Source: a virus
Reading direction: 5' to 3' (one strand)
DNA: 34,204 nucleotides
UHGV virus genome: UHGV-1976995
In this document: positions 13,767-34,204 of the stretch, in pieces
How positions within the stretch are numbered: the first letter of the stretch is position 1
Layout: each line of letters begins with the position of its first letter
Program-made: the position numbers and the translations under genes
The notes under the pieces: generated by a model
Seen by the model: only the letters and a program-made list of their open reading frames with translations
Databases searched by the model: none
Told to the model about the DNA's origin: nothing

Positions 13767-14125
13767 ATGAATATCGGTTTGTGCTTCCATACCCGCCGTC
13801 GGTGAATACCTACTGGCGAAGAAGGGGAAGCCAATACTACATCAGCGATAAAGGCCAGAAATACCGAAAAGATGTACAGCAAATAATCCGCCAACTCAAG
13901 TTAGACATTTTCACCAAATCACGACTCCGCATCAAAGTCATTGCAGACGTTCCAGACTCCCGCCGCCGCGACCTCGACAACATCCTGAAAGGTTTACTCG
14001 ACTCCCTTATCCACGCCGGATTTGCGGAAGACGACGAGCAATTCGATGACATTCGCGTAATTCGTGGTGTGAAAGTACCAGGTGGAAGGCTTGGAATAAA
14101 AATCACCGAACTGGAGAACGCATGA
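13763..14125 (+). CDS. rusA: Holliday junction resolvase RusA
   Basis: Conserved RusA motifs (PPSVNTYW, RRRDLDN, GGRL) as I recall from E. coli RusA. Confidence 0.85.
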   Translation: MNEYRFVLPYPPSVNTYWRRRGSQYYISDKGQKYRKDVQQIIRQLKLDIFTKSRLRIKVIADVPDSRRRDLDNILKGLLDSLIHAGFAEDDEQFDDIRVIRGVKVPGGRLGIKITELENA

Positions 14126-14310
14126 ACGCCACAATTCAAACGATACCAGAGCTTCTTATCCAGACACGAGGCAATCAGACCGAAGTGGCAAGGATGCTTT
14201 CCTGCGCAAGAGGAACAGTGCTCAAGTACAACCGAGACAGCAAAGGCGAGCGTCACGTAATAGTTAACGGCGTCCTGATGGTCAAACAGGGCAAAAGGGG
14301 AAGGCCATGA
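14122..14310 (+). CDS. ninH: NinH-like protein
   Basis: GNQTEVARML.C.RGTV.KY...NGVLMV pattern matches lambda NinH from memory. Confidence 0.7.
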   Translation: MNATIQTIPELLIQTRGNQTEVARMLSCARGTVLKYNRDSKGERHVIVNGVLMVKQGKRGRP

Positions 14311-28358: not shown

Positions 28359-29663
28359 ATGGCTACGTGGCAACAGGGTATTAATTCTGGTGGTTTTCTG
28401 GCTGGCATCGGTACGCAAAATGAGAATGCGCCAAAGGCAAACGACATTAACGCAACGCTTGGTCTGATCCGCGAAAACAATGAACTGGCTCGCTCAGGTG
28501 CAAATAACGTTGGTCTGACCGCGTTACGTGGTCTGGCTGGAGTTGCTGATATTTATAAGCAGGAACAGCAACAGAAAGCGATTAATGCGTTCAATAAGGT
28601 TCATGCTGATGCATGGGCTTCTGGTGATCCATCGGGACTATTTAAGTTTGCCAAGGAAAATCCAGCGTTTGTTGCGCAGGCACAACAGGCGTTTTCCGGT
28701 CTTAATGATCAGCAACGCAACGATATGGGCGATTTAGCCATGAGGGCTAACGTCGCTCTTTCTCAGGGACCGGAAGCCTACAGTAAATTCATTACTGACA
28801 ACAAGGACAGGTTAAATCGCGTGGGGGCGAATGCTGACTGGATGATTCAGACAGGTATCCAGAATCCAGAGCAGCTATCACACATGCTGACTACTATGTC
28901 TCTCGGTGCACTTGGACCAGAAAAGGCGTTTGCTGTTCAGGATAAGATGGTTGGTCGTGAGATTGACCGAGGCCAGCTGGCAGAGACAATCCGCAGCAAT
29001 CAGGCAGGAGAAGCACTAACAGCTCGAGGTCAGGACATCCAGATACGTGGACAGAACATCAGCGCACAGAATGCTGCTCTTTCCCGAGAAATACAAAGAG
29101 CAGAATTACAAGAAAAGGCTCTGGACAGACAGATAGCCAGAGAAAGCAATCAGTTAAAGCTTGAAGAGCTAAAACAGAAACAGGCAGATGTTCGGCAAAA
29201 GGCTGACATAGCCCGCGCTGACAGGCAGGCCGCCGCTCAGGGTGCAGTTGATACGTTCAGCACCGCGCTTGATTCTCTCAACGAGATAGAGCAAAGCCCC
29301 GGCCTTTCAAAAGCAGTAGGAATTCGCTCAGCGTTTCCGACAGTTCCTGGCTCTGATGCGGCTAACTTTGAAGCAAGGCTCGACACCTTTAAAGCTCAAA
29401 CATTCCTTCCTATGGTGCAGTCCCTGAAGGGTATGGGCGCTCTTTCAGATGCAGAGGGTAAAAAATTATCCGATGCGGTTGGTGCCCTAAGCCCCAAAAT
29501 GAGTGAAAAGGCTTTTCGTGACTCTATCGGAAAGATTAGAAATCAGCTTGAAAGCAAGTTGAGCACTGTTAAAAAACAGTTTGATTATCAGGAGCCGGTG
29601 CAGAATATGCCAGGGCAACAATCTACTACTGGCAGTAACTTTTCTTCGCTATGGGGTGATTAA
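28359..29663 (+). CDS. ejection protein (P22 gp20-like)
   Basis: 434 aa, helical and Gln-rich; AAGGGG RBS; synteny. Confidence 0.7.
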
Positions 29664-31660
29664 TGGCTAAAGCATGGAAAGATGTTATCGCCTCTCCACA
29701 GTATCAGGCGTTAGCACCAGAACAAAAAGCGCAGGCTCAGGAGCAATACTTCAATGAAGTCGTTGCCCCGCAAGCCGGAGAAAATGCAGAGCAGGCTAAG
29801 CAAGCTTTCTATGCTGCCTATCCATTGCCATCTGTGCAGCCAGTGGAGACACAACAACCAGTATCACAGCAACAACCACAGCAAAGTGGATTTATGTCGG
29901 ATCTTGGTGAAGCCGTGAAAGAAACTGGTCGCGGACTGGTGCAGGCTGGCGTGAACGTGGCAAACATACCTGCATCAGTTGCCGATGCTGTAACAAGCGC
30001 GGCGGCATGGGCTGGCGGTAAACTCGGCATTGGCGATGGTACATATCAACCAGCGCCACGAGTAACAACGCAGGGGTTAGAGCAGGACTTTGGCCTTCAG
30101 CAAGGCGCGCTCACTCCACAAACGACAGAGGGAAGGGTATTTGCTGAAGCATTGCCTTACCTCACTCCTGCTGGCGTTGAGAGAGCGGCAGCACAGGCAC
30201 CAACACTTGCTGGTCGAATTGCTCAGGGGGCAACTCGCCTTCTAGCAGAAAACGCAGTTGGATCACTTGCTGCAAATAGTGCGAAAGATGATGCGGAAGC
30301 ACTCGCCACCGATTTAGGCGTTGGCGTTCTGGCTGGCGGTGCTATTAACGCTGCCGGACGTGGATTAGGTGCTGCTTATCGTGGCGTTCGTGGTGCTATT
30401 GCGCCAGAAGCGCAGCAGGCTATCAGATTTGCAGAGCGTGAAGGAGTTCCTCTGCACACCACAGACCTGTTACAGCCTACTTCCCGCGTCGGAAAAATGG
30501 CGCAAACGACAGCAGAAAATATCCCCCTGGCTGGCACAAGCGGAATGAGAGCAACGCAACAGGAAGCGAGAAGCCAGTTGGTTCAGAGATTTGCTGATAA
30601 ATTCGGTGAGTATGATCCAGCGGTTGTTATTGACAGCCTTAAAGCGAAAACATCAGGAATTCGTCGTGCCGCCGGTAATCGACTGGAGCAGGTTCAGAAT
30701 GCTATGGCGGGAATAAACATTCAGCCTGCAAGAGCAATTCAGCAGATTGATACAGAAATATCTAACCTGCAGAAGCTTGGTAAGGTTGCTGATAACGAGA
30801 CTATTTCAAAACTTCAGTCCTATCGTGATGAGCTTGTTCGCAATGCTGGTCCTGATGGTCCGGTAAATCTGGATTTGAAGCAATTAAGCGATCTGCGCAG
30901 CCAGTTCAGAATGGATGTGAAGGGTGAGCGACCAGTGTTACCAAACCGTTCCGATGCTGCCATTCAGCGCGTTTACAAGGCAATGACCGACGATATCAAT
31001 GGTGCCATTGGTCAGAATCTTGGCAACGATACTCTCCGTAAATATCAGCAGGCCAATGCCGTCTACGCTGACGAAGCGGCGAAACTAAAGAATACCAGGC
31101 TGAAGAATGTTCTCATGAAAGGCGACCTGACGCCGGAAGTTGTCAACAACATGCTATTCAGCAAGAACAAATCGGAAATTAAGACGCTGTATAACTCAGT
31201 TGGTCGTGTTGGCAGGGCGCAAATGCGCAATGGCATCATTGGAAAGGCGATGGAGAAATCAGGTGGTTCCCCTGATCAGTTCCTTCGACAGCTTAACATC
31301 CTGCAAAACCAGACTGGCATCACATTTAAGGGGCAGGACGCTGCTTATCTGAAAGGATTGAAAAACTACCTGCAATCCACGCAGCAGGCTGCAAAAGCGG
31401 CAGTAACAACACCAACAGGGCAGCAAACCATCCCGTTCATTATCGGGTATGGGACAGCAATGAACCCGGCGACAACTGGCGCAGCGGTAAGCTACGGACT
31501 TCTTACTCGCGCCTATGAGAGCGAACCATTCAGAAATGCAATGCTCCGAATGGCAAACACACCACGCGGATCGACAGCGTTTGAGAAAGCCATGCAGCAA
31601 GCGCAAAAAGCGATTAATGCACTGACGCAGGGTGCTAAGTCTGATTCGTTGTCAGAATAG
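29663..31660 (+). CDS. ejection protein (P22 gp16-like)
   Basis: 665 aa; ATGA-type overlap with the gp20-like stop; synteny. Confidence 0.7.
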   Translation: MAKAWKDVIASPQYQALAPEQKAQAQEQYFNEVVAPQAGENAEQAKQAFYAAYPLPSVQPVETQQPVSQQQPQQSGFMSDLGEAVKETGRGLVQAGVNVANIPASVADAVTSAAAWAGGKLGIGDGTYQPAPRVTTQGLEQDFGLQQGALTPQTTEGRVFAEALPYLTPAGVERAAAQAPTLAGRIAQGATRLLAENAVGSLAANSAKDDAEALATDLGVGVLAGGAINAAGRGLGAAYRGVRGAIAPEAQQAIRFAEREGVPLHTTDLLQPTSRVGKMAQTTAENIPLAGTSGMRATQQEARSQLVQRFADKFGEYDPAVVIDSLKAKTSGIRRAAGNRLEQVQNAMAGINIQPARAIQQIDTEISNLQKLGKVADNETISKLQSYRDELVRNAGPDGPVNLDLKQLSDLRSQFRMDVKGERPVLPNRSDAAIQRVYKAMTDDINGAIGQNLGNDTLRKYQQANAVYADEAAKLKNTRLKNVLMKGDLTPEVVNNMLFSKNKSEIKTLYNSVGRVGRAQMRNGIIGKAMEKSGGSPDQFLRQLNILQNQTGITFKGQDAAYLKGLKNYLQSTQQAAKAAVTTPTGQQTIPFIIGYGTAMNPATTGAAVSYGLLTRAYESEPFRNAMLRMANTPRGSTAFEKAMQQAQKAINALTQGAKSDSLSE

Positions 31661-31750
31661 CCTTTCAAACACCAGGAACGTGCAAAAACCAAATATGTAG
31701 AACGCGAGGTTTATCGTATTCCTCTGCATAGGCGATACCTTTGCTGATTG

Positions 31751-32236
31751 TTATCTGATGTTACTGCTACTGTTGCATGTTACCGTGTTTCCAAATCCTG
31801 AATTGCAGTTTGTATATGTGTCAACGCGTGTTGGGTAAGGTTGAGTTATAACAGGCTGGCGCGCTTTTTGCTCGATCGCTTGCATTGTGTTTACAGCCTG
31901 ATAATTCAATAAAGCCTGCTGGAATGCTTGGCTTTGTGCTATTTGTTGGGCTTGTTCTTGGCTTTGTAATTGAACATAAAGATTCTGAAGCTCAAGTCTT
32001 GCCTGTGCGTCACTTATCTTGCCTTCATCGACACCTTGCCCGAGCATCTTTGCAGCAAGGACATACAGCTTAGGTGTTGGTGCTGATGCCATGCGTGAGT
32101 CGTTCTTCACACTGGCATCAAGGCAATTAGCCATATCGCTAAGCTTTTGATAGCGTTGTTCGCAACTTGCTTGATAGTCACTTACTTTTGCGCACCCAGC
32201 CAGCAGAAGCGGGATAATTAACAGTGATTTTTTCAT
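31751..32236 (-). CDS. lipoprotein, cargo gene, candidate superinfection-exclusion factor
   Basis: Track ORF 31751..32287 trimmed to MKKSLLIIPLLLAGC (signal peptide with lipobox LAGC); opposite strand to the flanking structural genes; Gln-rich helical middle and Cys-containing C-terminus. Confidence 0.6.
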   Translation of the reverse strand: MKKSLLIIPLLLAGCAKVSDYQASCEQRYQKLSDMANCLDASVKNDSRMASAPTPKLYVLAAKMLGQGVDEGKISDAQARLELQNLYVQLQSQEQAQQIAQSQAFQQALLNYQAVNTMQAIEQKARQPVITQPYPTRVDTYTNCNSGFGNTVTCNSSSNIR

Positions 32237-32270
32237 ATAATTAACTCTCCTTAGTTTTGCGCAGGATACC

Positions 32271-32636
32271 ATGAAAAAAGTTAACATTGGAAACGTACCA
32301 AAGATGCTCGTTCCGCTCTTTGAGAGCGGTACAATTGTGTTTTGTAGAGACTTTCCAGAATGGCAACGCCTGCATCAAAAACTTGGCGTTGACGTGCATG
32401 ACTCGGACGCCAACGGAGCGTCTCATACAATGAGTAGCGAGAATGGTGTTTTGCATGTGATAGGCGTGTTCAATGGCAAACTATCTACTATTGCCCATGA
32501 GTGCGCTCACATGGCATTCGATATCTGCTCAAGGGTAGGTGTTGATGTTGAACCAGGAAGAGCCAACGAGACTTACTGCTACTTAATGAGCAGGCTTGTT
32601 GAGTTCTGCGAGCGACATATCAAAAAGCCGGAGTGA
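32271..32636 (+). CDS. small HExxH-motif protein (putative metallopeptidase-like), cargo gene
   Basis: 121 aa with HECAH at residues 86 to 90 of the track translation; no strong RBS at either candidate start. Confidence 0.5.
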   Translation: MKKVNIGNVPKMLVPLFESGTIVFCRDFPEWQRLHQKLGVDVHDSDANGASHTMSSENGVLHVIGVFNGKLSTIAHECAHMAFDICSRVGVDVEPGRANETYCYLMSRLVEFCERHIKKPE

Positions 32637-32645
32637 CCCGGCTTG
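32624..32645. terminator. hairpin between convergent cargo genes (possible bidirectional terminator)
   Basis: AAGCCGG-AGTGAC-CCGGCTT with A-rich 5' flank and GATTATTACTTTTT 3' flank; the HExxH gene stop lies in the loop. Confidence 0.45.
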
Positions 32646-32649
32646 ATTA

Positions 32650-32829
32650 TTACTTTTTGCTGTCTGGAGTTCGCTTATCCAATACCCAGCCATGACCTGG
32701 CTTTGTTGTTGGTGGAAGCCTTTCGTTGTCCTTGACGGTTGCAAAATTGTCTTTCTTACCGCCGCGTGGGCCAACTTCTTGGTATATTCCGCCGTTTTTT
32801 CCTGTGTTTTCACCTGGTTTTTTCGCCAT
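32650..32829 (-). CDS. YjzC-like small protein (59 aa), cargo gene
   Basis: Track ORF trimmed to the ATG at 32829 behind GAGGT; pattern GENTGKNGGIYQEVGPRGG...ERLPPTTKPGHGW resembles the YjzC-like family as I remember it. Confidence 0.45.
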   Translation of the reverse strand: MAKKPGENTGKNGGIYQEVGPRGGKKDNFATVKDNERLPPTTKPGHGWVLDKRTPDSKK

Positions 32830-32859
32830 GATATACCTCAACATACACCCGTTATTGGG

Positions 32860-32894
32860 CGATTAAATATTGATCTCATTTTATAAGTAGTCAA
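32860..32894 (-). promoter_or_regulatory. candidate promoter for the YjzC-like gene (TTGACT-N17-AATATT)
   Basis: On the minus strand TTGACT, 17-nt spacer, AATATT, about 40 nt upstream of the ATG. Confidence 0.3.
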
Positions 32895-32919
32895 TATGGC
32901 CCAGGTAAATGCAAAAATT

Positions 32920-32944
32920 AACCCACCTTCAGGTGGGTTTTTTG
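32920..32944. terminator. hairpin overlapping the mnt stop codon; terminator-like in both orientations
   Basis: AACCCACC-TTCA-GGTGGGTT followed by TTTTTTG on the plus strand and AATTTTTGCATTT on the minus strand. Confidence 0.5.
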
Positions 32945-33180
32945 TACAAATCCTTCAGCGTATCAAACACCATCTTCTTAACAAGTTCAGACTGCTCATC
33001 AGCGATGCGTTCCGCATCGTCTCGATAGCCTGAAATTTTGGATGGCTTTGATACAGCATCAGTCACTATCTGAACTAATTCTGAATTAAGAGAGCGGCCA
33101 TTGGATTTGGCTCGCTGTTTTAGTTTTTCCTTTAATTCGTAAGGTAGCCGCAGATTAAATTGCGGGTCATCTCTTCCCAT
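32929..33180 (-). CDS. mnt: Mnt repressor (Arc/MetJ ribbon-helix-helix family)
   Basis: MGRDDPQFNLRLPYELKEKLKQRAKSNGRSLNSELVQIV...DDAERIADEQSELVKKMVFDTLKDLYKK matches P22 Mnt closely from memory. Confidence 0.85.
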   Translation of the reverse strand: MGRDDPQFNLRLPYELKEKLKQRAKSNGRSLNSELVQIVTDAVSKPSKISGYRDDAERIADEQSELVKKMVFDTLKDLYKKPT

Positions 33181-33243
33181 TCTTGATGCCTCGCTTTTGT
33201 GAGTGGATCGGCATCTTATTATCTGCTGGTTGCATCCTCAATA

Positions 33244-33258
33244 AGACCACAGTGGTCT
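33244..33258. promoter_or_regulatory. candidate Mnt operator: 15-bp perfect dyad AGACCAC-A-GTGGTCT
   Basis: Perfect inverted repeat between mnt and the tailspike gene, next to a candidate leftward promoter TTGAGG-N17-TAAGAT; analogous in form to the P22 Mnt operator. Confidence 0.5.
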
Positions 33259-33326
33259 CTTTGTTTGATTAATAATGCATCACTGTGGCAATGCTGCGGC
33301 GATTCCTTGTATCTGGAGCAAATTAA

Positions 33327-34204
33327 ATGACAGACATTACAGCCAATGTTGTAGTGAGTATGCCTTCGCAACTCTTCACTATGGCGCGTTCTTTTAAAGC
33401 CGTAGCCAATGGCAAAATTTATATCGGTAAAATTGACACTGACCCGGTAAATCCTGAAAACCAGATTCAGGTTTATGTAGAGAACGAAGACGGTTCTCAC
33501 GTTCCTGTTTCGCAACCAATCATCATTAACGCTGCTGGATATCCGGTATATAACGGACAGATTGCCAAATTCGTAACCGTGCAAGGCCATTCTATGGTTG
33601 TTTACGATGCTTATGGCACTCAGCAGTTTTATTTTCCAAATGTATTAAAATACGATCCAGATCAGTTTGGCCCAGACTTCAAAGAGCAGTTATCTCAATC
33701 AGGAGCATACATTAATGATGATTCAAAAGGTGATGCATTAATTGGGGTAAGGCAGCCATTTACCGGGGCTGTAACTATAACTCAGCATGAAAACAATGCT
33801 CTTTTCTTAAATGTAAAACAATTTGGAGCAATTGGGGATGGGAAATATCATCCATTATCTGAGTGGTTTTCTTCAATTTCTGAAGCAAAATCCTTATATC
33901 CTTTTGTTGACTCATTATCTCAGTCAATAGACTGGGCCGCGTGGCAAGCTGCCCTTAACACAGGAAAGGTTATTTATGGTACTGATAATGCGTATGTAAT
34001 AACGGATACGTTAACACCTGTTTCTGGTGGTGGGATAATTGGTCTTGGTGTGGGCAAATGGGTCTCTGGATATACTGCAACATTTGCTCCTGATATTACC
34101 ACAGGGACCACATTCCTGATGTACGGTGTAGGAAATAAAAAATATACTGTAGATTGTGTTTCTAATATGGATGTTAGTGGTGGTGTGGTTTCTAATCCAT
34201 CTTC
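33327..34204 (+). CDS. tailspike protein, 5' partial (P22 gp9-type head-binding domain plus a different receptor-binding domain)
   Basis: Hand-translated open frame from the ATG at 33327 (absent from the track because it has no stop in the window); first about 110 aa ([11 protein letters not shown]...[12 protein letters not shown]...VLKYDPDQ) match the P22 gp9 head-binding domain; downstream sequence is unrelated to the P22 endorhamnosidase. Confidence 0.85.

What the first reader, a model, noticed from the sequence alone, without database searches (positions are those of the whole stretch)
32271..32636. Small HExxH protein divergent from the lipoprotein gene
The 121-aa protein carries a single HECAH motif, the minimal zinc-metallopeptidase signature. 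Small HExxH proteins in phages often act as regulatory proteases of repressors (ImmA-like) or envelope factors. Its start lies only about 34 bp from the lipoprotein gene start, so promoters must overlap coding sequence, implying tight co-regulation.
Basis: partly seen in the sequence, partly recalled or inferred. Interest (0 to 1): 0.55.

Follow-up and report, generated by a model that had tools for sequence, protein, structure and literature searches.

The report
Small phage zinc-protease-like gene hkcC
This is a real, strongly conserved phage gene (hkcC, also present in the model phage P22, whose main GenBank records checked here do not annotate it) that almost certainly encodes a tiny zinc protease of a family nobody has characterised; what it cuts is unknown, and it is not a repressor-cleaving ImmA-type enzyme.

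Summary
The ORF at 32271-32636 (+) is real: 121 aa, one HECAH motif, 34 bp from the divergent lipoprotein gene. The motif is at H76-E77-C78-A79-H80, not 86/87/90. It is hkcC, a named gene of unknown function in the "ant moron" of P22-like phages (99% identical in HK620 and P22). Purifying selection is clear: 37 DNA alleles give 4 proteins, and 26 of 28 variable sites are at codon position 3. It belongs to a large unannotated phage family (546 clusters at 50% identity). H76, E77, H80 and E100 are 99-100% conserved, which is thermolysin-like HExxH+Glu spacing. The AlphaFold model (pLDDT 89) has a zincin-like layout. Matches to solved zincins are weak, and membership of ImmA/IrrE and of SprT was tested and failed.

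Three context points:
- hkcC points the same way as the late operon and shows no promoter of its own.
- It forms a conserved convergent pair with orf59a (YjzC-like) in 11 lineages.
- Its 5' end carries the shared leader, and the putative PsieA promoter, of a leftward slot holding at least 11 unrelated cargo genes; the lipoprotein is one of them.

Best reading: an accessory cytoplasmic zinc endopeptidase made during lytic growth, substrate unknown. Interest is moderate.

The parts
32271..32636 (+). hkcC coding sequence (121 aa), a minimal zincin-like protein
   Evidence: ORF. 99% identical to HK620 hkcC and to the P22 ORF. phrog_1365 at E 1.7e-39. Purifying selection. AF2 model pLDDT 89.
32263..32266 (+). 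AGGA Shine-Dalgarno-like motif 4 nt upstream of the hkcC ATG
   Evidence: Read directly from the sequence. Conserved in P22 and in all 11 upstream-cluster representatives.
32496..32510 (+). Codons for H76-E77-C78-A79-H80, the proposed zinc-binding and catalytic motif on helix 71-88
   Evidence: H76 100%, E77 99% and H80 99% conserved in 137 family representatives; H76 and H80 invariant in alignment A3.
32565..32570 (+). Codons for N99-E100; E100 is the proposed third zinc ligand and the first residue of helix 100-116
   Evidence: E100 99% and N99 74% conserved. E100 lies 20 residues after H80. Helix boundaries.
32271..32301 (-). Stretch equivalent to the promoter annotated as 'P sieA' in P22. 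It lies inside hkcC codons 1-10 and would drive the leftward cargo gene
   Evidence: P22-pbi annotation 13861-13891, aligned to the window. The promoter is putative: the simple sigma-70 scan did not call it.
32237..32270 (-). Shared leader and ribosome-binding site (AAGGAG, complement of 32247-32252) of the leftward cargo gene; also the homology breakpoint of the cargo slot
   Evidence: The same leader, GGTATCCTGCGCAAAACTAAGGAGG..., precedes 11 unrelated cargo genes. Homology with P22 begins at about 32243-32247.
31751..32236 (-). Lipoprotein gene (161 aa, phrog_6067), the current occupant of the cargo slot that holds sieA in P22
   Evidence: Replaced by sieA or other genes in other phages.
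32625..32644 (.). GC-rich hairpin with the hkcC stop codon in its loop. It is the terminator of the convergent orf59a transcript (T-run on the minus strand); the T-run on the plus strand is poor
   Evidence: Annotated 't mnt' in P22. A hairpin with different stem sequences is kept at the same place in L088, L089, L091, L095 and L096.
32650..32829 (-). orf59a (HkcD, weakly YjzC-like, 59 aa), the convergent partner gene of hkcC
   Evidence: Pair conserved in 11 lineages. Homology shown.
32866..32894 (-). Sigma-70-like promoter (TTGACT-17-AATATT) of orf59a
   Evidence: The only promoter-like site called in 31600-33400. The -35/-10 elements are conserved upstream of orf59a in unrelated contexts.
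32920..32939 (.). Bidirectional hairpin terminator between mnt and the orf59a promoter
32929..33180 (-). mnt (Arc/Mnt-type ribbon-helix-helix repressor). A neighbour, not functionally tied to hkcC by any evidence here
   Evidence: Pfam Arc 2.7e-22 and Repressor_Mnt 2.2e-18. Annotation.

Best explanation
The ORF is hkcC, a conserved accessory gene of P22-like and other phages.

Shown: it is a real protein-coding gene under purifying selection. It belongs to a large, uncurated, phage-specific family of stand-alone proteins of about 120 aa. The family keeps HExxH plus a Glu 20 residues downstream almost invariantly. The predicted fold places those residues on two consecutive helices that follow a beta-hairpin. 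The protein has no signal peptide or membrane segment.

Inferred: HkcC is a cytoplasmic zinc endopeptidase of the gluzincin type. H76, H80 and E100 would bind zinc, E77 would be the general base, and the strand at 59-66 would dock the substrate.

Inferred from gene orientation and the lack of an own promoter: it is transcribed as a passenger of the anti-terminated lytic (late) operon that runs from gene 16 to the tailspike. It would therefore be made during lytic growth rather than in the lysogen.

Most likely role (inference, not shown): it cuts one specific protein, most probably a host protein, as a dispensable host-takeover or counter-defence function. This fits its place among early or DNA-metabolism genes in virulent phages and in accessory-gene hot-spots in temperate ones.

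Two further features are structural facts. Its 3' end is fused through a shared terminator hairpin to a convergent small gene, orf59a, which has its own promoter. Its 5' end doubles as the leader, and as the annotated but putative promoter, for a swappable leftward cargo gene.
For: - Real gene: (37 alleles give 4 proteins; 26 of 28 variable sites at codon position 3; 81 of 81 intact; synonymous sites saturated against relatives while pN stays at 0.13-0.41).
- Family size: 546 clusters at E<=1e-3, nearly all 100-140 aa.
- Catalytic-type residues: H76 100%, E77/H80/E100 99%, G49 99%, Y104 96%; H76, H80 and E100 invariant in 126 sequences.
- Fold: AF2 pLDDT 89, pTM 0.83, order strand-strand-helix-strand-strand-helix(71-88)-helix(100-116).
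- Weak sequence matches that name a peptidase family are all to zincins: SprT-like in 18 of 126 members, DUF5700, DUF4344, M48, reprolysin, myroilysin and astacins.
- Cytoplasmic: the longest hydrophobic run is 4 residues.
- Lytic-operon passenger: all structural genes, hkcC and the tailspike are on the + strand. No promoter-like site lies upstream of hkcC. In two siphovirus contexts an intrinsic terminator ends 8-10 nt before the hkcC ribosome-binding site, which leaves no room for a promoter. In the contexts inspected (ST64T, mEp021, siphovirus tail clusters, a Pasteurellaceae early operon), the gene points the same way as the surrounding lytic operon.
- Presence in virulent phages: early region of N4-like phages, and next to DNA polymerase or RNA polymerase in Autographiviridae.
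Against: - No enzymatic, metal-binding or expression data exist, and no paper assigns a function.
- Transcription from the late promoter is inferred, not observed. A perfect TATAAT at 32236-32241 with a poor -35 cannot be excluded as a weak own promoter.
- The substrate is unknown. The strong linkage to orf59a in one clade hints at a phage-internal target rather than a host one.
- No match in PADLOC.
Confidence: 0.45

Rival explanations
1. HkcC and Orf59a form a two-gene module. Orf59a is made in the lysogen from its own promoter. HkcC is made only when lytic transcription runs through the cassette, which also silences orf59a by convergent transcription. HkcC would then cleave or neutralise Orf59a, acting as a self-immunity or antidote protease.
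For: - The convergent hkcC/orf59a pair, with a terminator hairpin between the genes, is kept in 11 independent lineages: P22-like, Rosenbergiella, Klebsiella, Xenorhabdus, Proteus, Pasteurellaceae and metagenomes.
- These lie in different genomic settings, down to 43-46% HkcC identity.
- The two proteins diverge in step: hkcC 63/60/57/43% against orf59a 81/76/78/61%.
- orf59a has its own conserved promoter and is always antisense to the surrounding operon.
Against: - Most of the wider family lacks orf59a: ST64T-type paralogues, mEp021, N4-like phages, Autographiviridae and terminase-adjacent members.
- One 78%-identical relative also lacks it.
- YjzC-like genes occur alone in Gram-positive phages.
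- Co-inheritance as a mobile cassette could explain the linkage without any biochemical link.
Confidence: 0.15
2. An ImmA/IrrE-like regulatory protease that cleaves a phage repressor (Mnt, or C2/CI) to control the immunity I or lysis-lysogeny switch.
For: - HExxH plus a downstream Glu is also the ImmA/IrrE pattern.
- mnt lies 290 bp away.
- BFVD 'IrrE' hits at E about 0.03.
Against: - None of 126 family members matches Peptidase_M78 at E<=0.1.
- Mnt is a ribbon-helix-helix protein, not an HTH repressor, and is separated from hkcC by orf59a and a terminator.
- The cassette occurs in tail-gene clusters with no repressor nearby.
- Relatives sit in virulent phages that have no repressor.
Confidence: 0.06
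3. A SprT/Wss1/Spartan-like DNA-associated protease that removes proteins stuck on phage DNA during replication or packaging.
For: - 18 of 126 members give weak Pfam SprT-like hits, best E 1e-4.
- In Autographiviridae the gene overlaps the start of the DNA polymerase or RNA polymerase gene and follows the helicase or ligase gene.
- Some members sit beside the terminase gene.
- Several members carry Lys/Arg-rich C-terminal tails.
Against: - The SprT-like matches cover only the 17-residue HExxH helix.
- hhalign of the family profile against E. coli SprT (YggI) gives 4% probability.
- Six residues after H80, where from background knowledge this class has a third His, the family has Leu or Cys. 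The conserved third ligand is instead a Glu 20 residues on.
- There is no zinc ribbon. The window's protein has no basic tail.
Confidence: 0.1
4. Not a functional enzyme. The ORF is kept because the DNA carries the PsieA promoter, the cargo leader and a terminator, or the protein is a catalytically dead zincin-like binder.
For: - The 5' end overlaps an annotated promoter and the 3' end overlaps a terminator.
- hkcC DNA is unusually uniform (97-100%) among otherwise mosaic phages and acts as the fixed anchor next to a hypervariable slot.
Against: - The variation is almost purely synonymous.
- Protein homologues at 25-45% identity keep HExxH...E in genomes with quite different DNA and neighbours.
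- The middle of the gene carries no known DNA signal.
Confidence: 0.04

Closest known systems
hkcC of coliphage HK620, and the equivalent ORF between sieA and orf59a of Salmonella phage P22
   Same: 99% identical protein in the same position in the 'ant moron' between gene 16 and mnt/tailspike. Listed as a gene of unknown function in PMC2629481.
   Different: Essentially nothing differs. The left neighbour here is a lipoprotein gene instead of sieA. The P22 records AF527608, BK000583 and AB362338 do not annotate the ORF at all.
Gluzincin metallopeptidases (thermolysin-type HExxH+E; M3 oligopeptidases were the best structural match)
ImmA/IrrE (Peptidase_M78) anti-repressor proteases, including CapP of CBASS
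   Same: Small cytoplasmic HExxH+Glu zincins on mobile elements. Weak structural hits to CapP and PrpR.
   Different: No profile match, no cognate HTH repressor gene, and presence in virulent phages.
SprT-like / Wss1 / Spartan proteases
   Same: Small zincin; weak Pfam hits over the HExxH helix.
   Different: hhalign probability is 4%. The third ligand is Glu, not His. No zinc ribbon.
Minigluzincins (proabylysin, projannalysin), named from my own knowledge and not tested here
   Same: Stand-alone zincin catalytic cores of about 100-110 residues.

Membership tests
hkcC / PHROG 1365 | Full-length profile match, and near-identity to the named gene | tested here: met
   phrog_1365 E 1.7e-39 over residues 1-121. 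99.2% identity to HK620 hkcC.
Zincin (gluzincin) metallopeptidases | HExxH motif on an alpha-helix, conserved across the family | tested here: met
   H76 100%, E77 99%, H80 99% in 137 representatives. The motif lies within predicted helix 71-88.
Zincin (gluzincin) metallopeptidases | Third zinc ligand is a Glu on the next helix, about 18 or more residues after the second His | tested here: met
   E100 is 99% conserved, lies 20 residues after H80, and starts helix 100-116. This holds at sequence and secondary-structure level only; the geometry was not checked.
Zincin (gluzincin) metallopeptidases | Beta-sheet whose edge strand directly precedes the active-site helix | tested here: met
   Strands 49-56 and 59-66 precede helix 71-88 in the model. 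The GVF(D/N) strand is conserved.
Zincin (gluzincin) metallopeptidases | Significant structural similarity to solved zincins | tested here: inconclusive
Zincin (gluzincin) metallopeptidases | Zinc binding and peptide-bond hydrolysis | not testable with these tools
   Needs purified protein.
ImmA/IrrE (Peptidase_M78, PF06114) | Profile match to PF06114 | tested here: not met
   PF06114 is absent from the Pfam hits of the query and of all 126 members at E<=0.1.
ImmA/IrrE (Peptidase_M78, PF06114) | Genetic linkage to the cognate HTH repressor it cleaves | tested here: not met
   The neighbours are orf59a and the RHH protein Mnt. The cassette is found without any repressor and in virulent phages.
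SprT-like (PF10263) / Wss1 / Spartan | Domain-length profile match | tested here: not met
   Matches cover profile positions 62-79 only and fall below the cut-off. hhalign against E. coli SprT gives probability 4%.
SprT-like (PF10263) / Wss1 / Spartan | Third His shortly after HExxH, and (for SprT) a C-terminal zinc ribbon | tested here: not met
   Position 86 is Leu 57% / Cys 30%. No Zn_ribbon_SprT hit, whereas E. coli SprT has one. That the His defines the class is from my own knowledge.
Known anti-phage defence proteins (PADLOC) | Match to any PADLOC model | tested here: not met
   No hit at E<=1 for HkcC, the lipoprotein or Orf59a.

The most novel reading that the evidence does not exclude
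hkcC and orf59a are a self-contained, mobile lysogeny/lysis toggle.

The prophage would express the small YjzC-like Orf59a from its own promoter, as an exclusion, defence or host-modulating factor. Once anti-terminated lytic transcription runs through the cassette, two things would happen. It would shut off orf59a by convergent transcription, and it would produce the HkcC protease, which removes existing Orf59a so that the phage does not harm its own lytic growth.

This would be a protease-based self-immunity device, and a first function for both the YjzC family and this zincin family.
Probability: 0.12. Interest if true: 0.7.

Novelty: new member of a known kind. Interest (0 to 1): 0.4.

Why it matters
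P22 is one of the best-studied phages, yet this conserved gene is missing from the three P22 GenBank records checked here (AF527608, BK000583, AB362338) and has no known function. The analysis gives it a concrete, testable biochemical identity: a minimal HExxH+Glu zinc peptidase.

It also shows that the family is large (546 clusters at 50% identity), phage-specific, absent from Pfam and NCBIfam, and present in virulent as well as temperate phages. If the substrate is a host immune or housekeeping protein, this would add a protease class to the list of phage host-takeover or counter-defence tools.

The conserved pairing with orf59a gives two immediate experimental handles. So does the fixed hkcC anchor next to a hypervariable slot that mostly holds small proteins with hydrophobic N-termini (SieA among them). 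The practical stakes are modest: about 2.4% of complete E. coli genomes carry the gene.

Tried and rejected
- **pid ORFan.** I checked whether the locus is the P22 'pid' ORFan, described as a previously unannotated moron in the late region. It is not; pid lies between orf25 and orf80.
- **ImmA/IrrE and SprT membership.** Both rejected.
- **Sequence searches.** Pfam, NCBIfam, PADLOC and PDB sequence searches with the single protein and with profiles gave nothing significant.
- **Fold searches.** Foldseek against PDB gave nothing. The AFDB library was unavailable.
- **Rfam.** A scan of 31600-33400 found only a chance-level hit.
- **Paralogue in the window.** A second paralogue between the lysis genes and terminase, as in ST64T, is absent; the 126-aa ORF there is unrelated.
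- **Locus fetching.** Fetching diverse family loci with alignments A3 and A7 failed because no stretch was conserved enough. The accepted pattern returned 4 contigs, of which only one carried a family member.
- **Literature.** Searches for hkcC, the accession numbers, YjzC and phage HExxH anti-defence proteins found no functional study. The P22 deletion study PMC11016777 did not delete hkcC separately.
- **Zincin next to YjzC in Gram-positive phages.** None found.
- **Second profile search of the 5.8-billion-protein set.** It added no annotated relatives.

Full report
**1. Observation**

The window is a P22-like (Lederbergvirus) prophage, 100% identical over the stretch searched (window 31600-34204) to one in E. 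coli CH10508. The ORF at 32271-32636 (+) exists as described: ATG start, 121 aa, TGA stop. It holds one HExxH, HECAH.

The divergent lipoprotein gene (31751-32236, minus strand, MKKSLLIIPLLLAGC...) starts 34 bp away. The motif alone is weak evidence, because 2.6% of shuffles of this His/Glu-rich protein contain HExxH.

**2. It is a real gene, and a named one**

The protein is 99% identical to hkcC of coliphage HK620 and to an intact ORF in P22 itself. It matches PHROG 1365 at E 1.7e-39, and PGAP calls it hypothetical protein WP_000757525.1. Casjens and colleagues list hkcC and 59a as the two genes of unknown function in the P22 'ant moron' (PMC2629481). The P22 records AF527608, BK000583 and AB362338 do not annotate it; they show only 'P sieA' and 't mnt' features there.

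Evidence for purifying selection comes from 81 loci (the window plus 80 IMG/VR contigs):
- The ORF is intact in all 81.
- 37 nucleotide alleles encode only 4 protein variants.
- 26 of 28 variable sites are at codon position 3.
- Against relatives at 43-78% identity, synonymous sites are saturated while pN is 0.13-0.41.

The gene is in 131 of 5426 complete E. coli genomes. No paper in the searchable library assigns it a function. It is not the P22 pid ORFan, which lies between orf25 and orf80.

**3. What the protein looks like**

An exhaustive profile search found 546 clusters (50% identity level) at E<=1e-3. Nearly all are stand-alone proteins of 100-140 aa. Conservation in 137 aligned representatives:
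- H76: 100%
- E77, H80, E100 and G49: 99% each
- Y104: 96%

H76, H80 and E100 are invariant in a 126-sequence alignment with 21% mean column identity. E100 lies 20 residues after H80 in an N-E-x context. From background knowledge, this is the spacing of the third zinc ligand in thermolysin-type gluzincins.

The AlphaFold2 model is confident (pLDDT 89, pTM 0.83). Its order is strand 11-13, strand 21-25, helix 28-37, beta-hairpin 49-56/59-66, helix 71-88 (carrying HExxH), helix 100-116 (starting at E100). That is the order of elements of a zincin core. The longest hydrophobic run is 4 residues, so the protein is cytoplasmic.

Structural searches gave mixed results:
- Foldseek against PDB found nothing significant.
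- BFVD holds 26 phage proteins of the same fold at E<=0.001, from very different phages (Ralstonia, Erwinia, Achromobacter and Eggerthella phages; a crAss-like virus and Acinetobacter phage Loki rank just below that cut-off). In the top 50 rows, a few are labelled SprT-like, Metalloprotease or IrrE.

No curated family matches: Pfam, NCBIfam, PADLOC and PDB sequence searches were all negative. The sub-threshold hits that name a peptidase family are all to zincins.

**4. Family membership tests**

ImmA/IrrE:
- None of 126 members hits Peptidase_M78.
- There is no cognate HTH repressor.
- The family occurs in virulent phages.

SprT:
- The weak Pfam hits cover only the 17-residue HExxH helix.
- hhalign of the family profile against E. 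coli SprT (YggI, fetched) gives 4% probability.
- Six residues after H80, where this class is known to have a third His, the family has Leu or Cys.
- There is no zinc ribbon.

So this is a distinct, uncurated family of minimal gluzincin-like proteins.

**5. Context 1: orientation and expression**

All head, tail and injection genes, hkcC and the tailspike are on the + strand. The lipoprotein gene, orf59a and mnt are on the - strand. The promoter scan finds no sigma-70-like site upstream of hkcC. The only site called in 31600-33400 is on the minus strand at 32894-32866, upstream of orf59a.

In two siphovirus prophages an intrinsic terminator ends 8-10 nt before the hkcC ribosome-binding site, which leaves no room for a promoter. 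In the contexts inspected, the gene points the same way as the surrounding lytic operon:
- between Rz and the small terminase gene in ST64T, and in the same slot in mEp021;
- between the tail chaperone and tape-measure genes in Rosenbergiella, Klebsiella and metagenomic prophages;
- after replication genes in a Pasteurellaceae prophage.

In P22-like phages the late transcript has to cross this region to reach the tailspike gene; this is established P22 biology, cited from my own knowledge. I therefore infer that hkcC is read as a passenger of the anti-terminated lytic transcript.

In virulent phages the family sits in the early region of N4-like phages. In Autographiviridae it lies directly before, and overlaps, the DNA polymerase or RNA polymerase gene.

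**6. Context 2: a conserved convergent partner**

Thirteen bases after the hkcC stop codon lies the stop codon of orf59a (32650-32829, minus strand; HkcD in HK620). This 59-aa protein is weakly YjzC-like (Pfam E 0.0013). A GC-rich hairpin (32625-32644) holds the hkcC stop codon in its loop. It has a good T-run only on the minus strand, so it terminates orf59a.

The same arrangement, hkcC followed by a hairpin and a convergent orf59a, recurs in 11 independent lineages and several genomic settings:
- P22-like phages (81 of 81 loci);
- Rosenbergiella, Klebsiella oxytoca, Xenorhabdus, Proteus penneri and a Pasteurellaceae genome;
- several metagenomic contigs.

It persists down to 43-46% HkcC identity, and the two proteins diverge in step. 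The hairpin is kept with different stem sequences.

orf59a has its own conserved promoter (TTGACT-17-AATATT). It also has a small leader hairpin with modest covariation: 81% of cells paired, and 6 of 500 shuffles as good.

The pairing is not universal. It is missing in one 78%-identical relative, in one pseudogene, in a Moraxella copy, and in all more distant subfamilies. YjzC-like genes stand alone in Gram-positive phages with no zincin next to them. The linkage is therefore strong within one clade, but it could reflect a mobile cassette rather than a biochemical partnership.

**7. Context 3: the divergent neighbour is a swappable cargo**

Across the 81 near-identical hkcC loci the downstream side (orf59a plus mnt) forms a single sequence cluster. 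The upstream side falls into at least 11 unrelated clusters.

In each, the leftward gene starts at or near the same point, directly after a shared leader, GGTATCCTGCGCAAAACTAAGGAGGTTGGTGTG. That leader supplies the ribosome-binding site and usually the GTG start codon. The cargo genes include sieA (P22), the lipoprotein of this window, a YobH-like protein and several small proteins with hydrophobic N-termini. More distant relatives carry a Rap1a-like and a ClpP-like protein.

P22's annotated PsieA promoter corresponds to hkcC codons 1-10. However, the lipoprotein has no specific link to hkcC. hkcC is the fixed anchor beside a hypervariable expression slot.

**8. Mechanism**

Shown: a real gene, a conserved HExxH...E, a zincin-like predicted fold, a cytoplasmic protein, and the contexts above.

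Inferred: zinc is bound by H76, H80 and E100, with E77 as catalytic base. The gene is expressed with the lytic operon. The protein cleaves one specific protein.

I consider a host target most likely, that is, host takeover or counter-defence. The family is dispensable, sits in accessory-gene hot-spots, and is placed among early or DNA-metabolism genes in virulent phages. Confidence in the whole statement is about 0.45. Confidence that it is a metal-dependent zincin-type hydrolase is about 0.75.

Rivals:
- a protease/partner module with Orf59a (0.15);
- a SprT-like DNA-associated protease (0.10);
- an ImmA-like repressor protease (0.06);
- a non-enzymatic or DNA-constraint explanation (0.04).

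**9. Novelty and verdict**

The gene is already catalogued as hkcC, so the feature itself is not new. Three things are new:
- the assignment to a distinct, widespread and uncurated family of minimal gluzincin-like proteins;
- the exclusion of ImmA and SprT membership;
- the cassette anatomy, namely the convergent orf59a partner and the cargo slot anchored on hkcC.

This is a new member (a new family) of a known kind of enzyme. Interest is moderate, at 0.4. It is an uncharacterised, conserved, probably catalytic gene in a paradigm phage, with clear experiments available, but nothing yet points to an unprecedented mechanism.

Noticed in passing
window 32237-32301 (leader plus hkcC codons 1-10); compare L008-L087: Hypervariable leftward cargo slot. 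At least 11 unrelated genes start at or near the same point behind an identical leader and ribosome-binding site, next to the invariant hkcC-orf59a-mnt block. They include sieA, this lipoprotein, a YobH-like protein, and proteins with hydrophobic N-termini. More distant relatives carry Rap1a-like and ClpP-like cargo. It looks like an expression dock for small envelope or exclusion proteins.
   Followed up: partly
window 32650-32894 (-): orf59a (HkcD, weakly YjzC-like, 59 aa) is a self-contained unit with its own conserved promoter (TTGACT-17-AATATT), a short GC stem-loop with a CAATA-type loop at the start of the leader, and its own terminator. Covariation in the stem is modest: one pair with compensatory changes, and 6 of 500 shuffles as good. 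YjzC-like genes also sit antisense inside late operons of Gram-positive phages, for example phiCT9441A.
   Followed up: partly
L001 2516-2893 (P22-pbi 13849-14226): The P22 records AF527608, BK000583 and AB362338 do not annotate hkcC although the ORF is intact and 99% identical. Some records instead extend sieA to 236 aa across the hkcC start (UAB_Phi20), which is probably an over-long call.
   Followed up: partly
window 32929-33330: This prophage, like phage Gally, has mnt followed directly by the tailspike gene (start about 33327), with no arc, sar or ant. It is unclear what the orphan Mnt repressor controls here.
   Followed up: no
L099 2983-3339; L100 2851-3165: In Autographiviridae the family member overlaps the start codon of the DNA polymerase gene (Klebsiella phage P1010) or the RNA polymerase gene (Pseudomonas phage Kurepalu-1). 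This suggests translational coupling with replication or transcription genes.
   Followed up: no
proteins P0063, P0067, P0116, P0133, P0150, P0170: Several family members carry long C-terminal extensions rich in Lys, Glu and Ala, ending in basic motifs such as ...PRIARYKRG and ...PRVMSFKRW. This is a possible nucleic-acid or partner-binding tail that the window's protein lacks.
   Followed up: no
records Phi75, UAB_Phi20, ST160, SE1; L004 3001-3390: Some P22-like phages carry two family members: hkcC in the ant moron, and a second match elsewhere in the record. The second place was not located in those records. In ST64T a paralogue about 38% identical lies between the Rz gene and the small terminase gene. 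The window has only hkcC.
   Followed up: partly
L108 147-749 and L096 1330-1968: Metagenomic relatives sit next to a 'Sequestin' (PF21825) gene and a 'PhageMetallopep' (PF18894) gene respectively. These neighbours were not examined.
   Followed up: no
window 29663-31660 (+): The gene 16-type injection protein of this prophage is annotated by PGAP as 'lytic transglycosylase domain-containing protein'. It is of the Gally/HK620 type rather than the P22 type.
   Followed up: no
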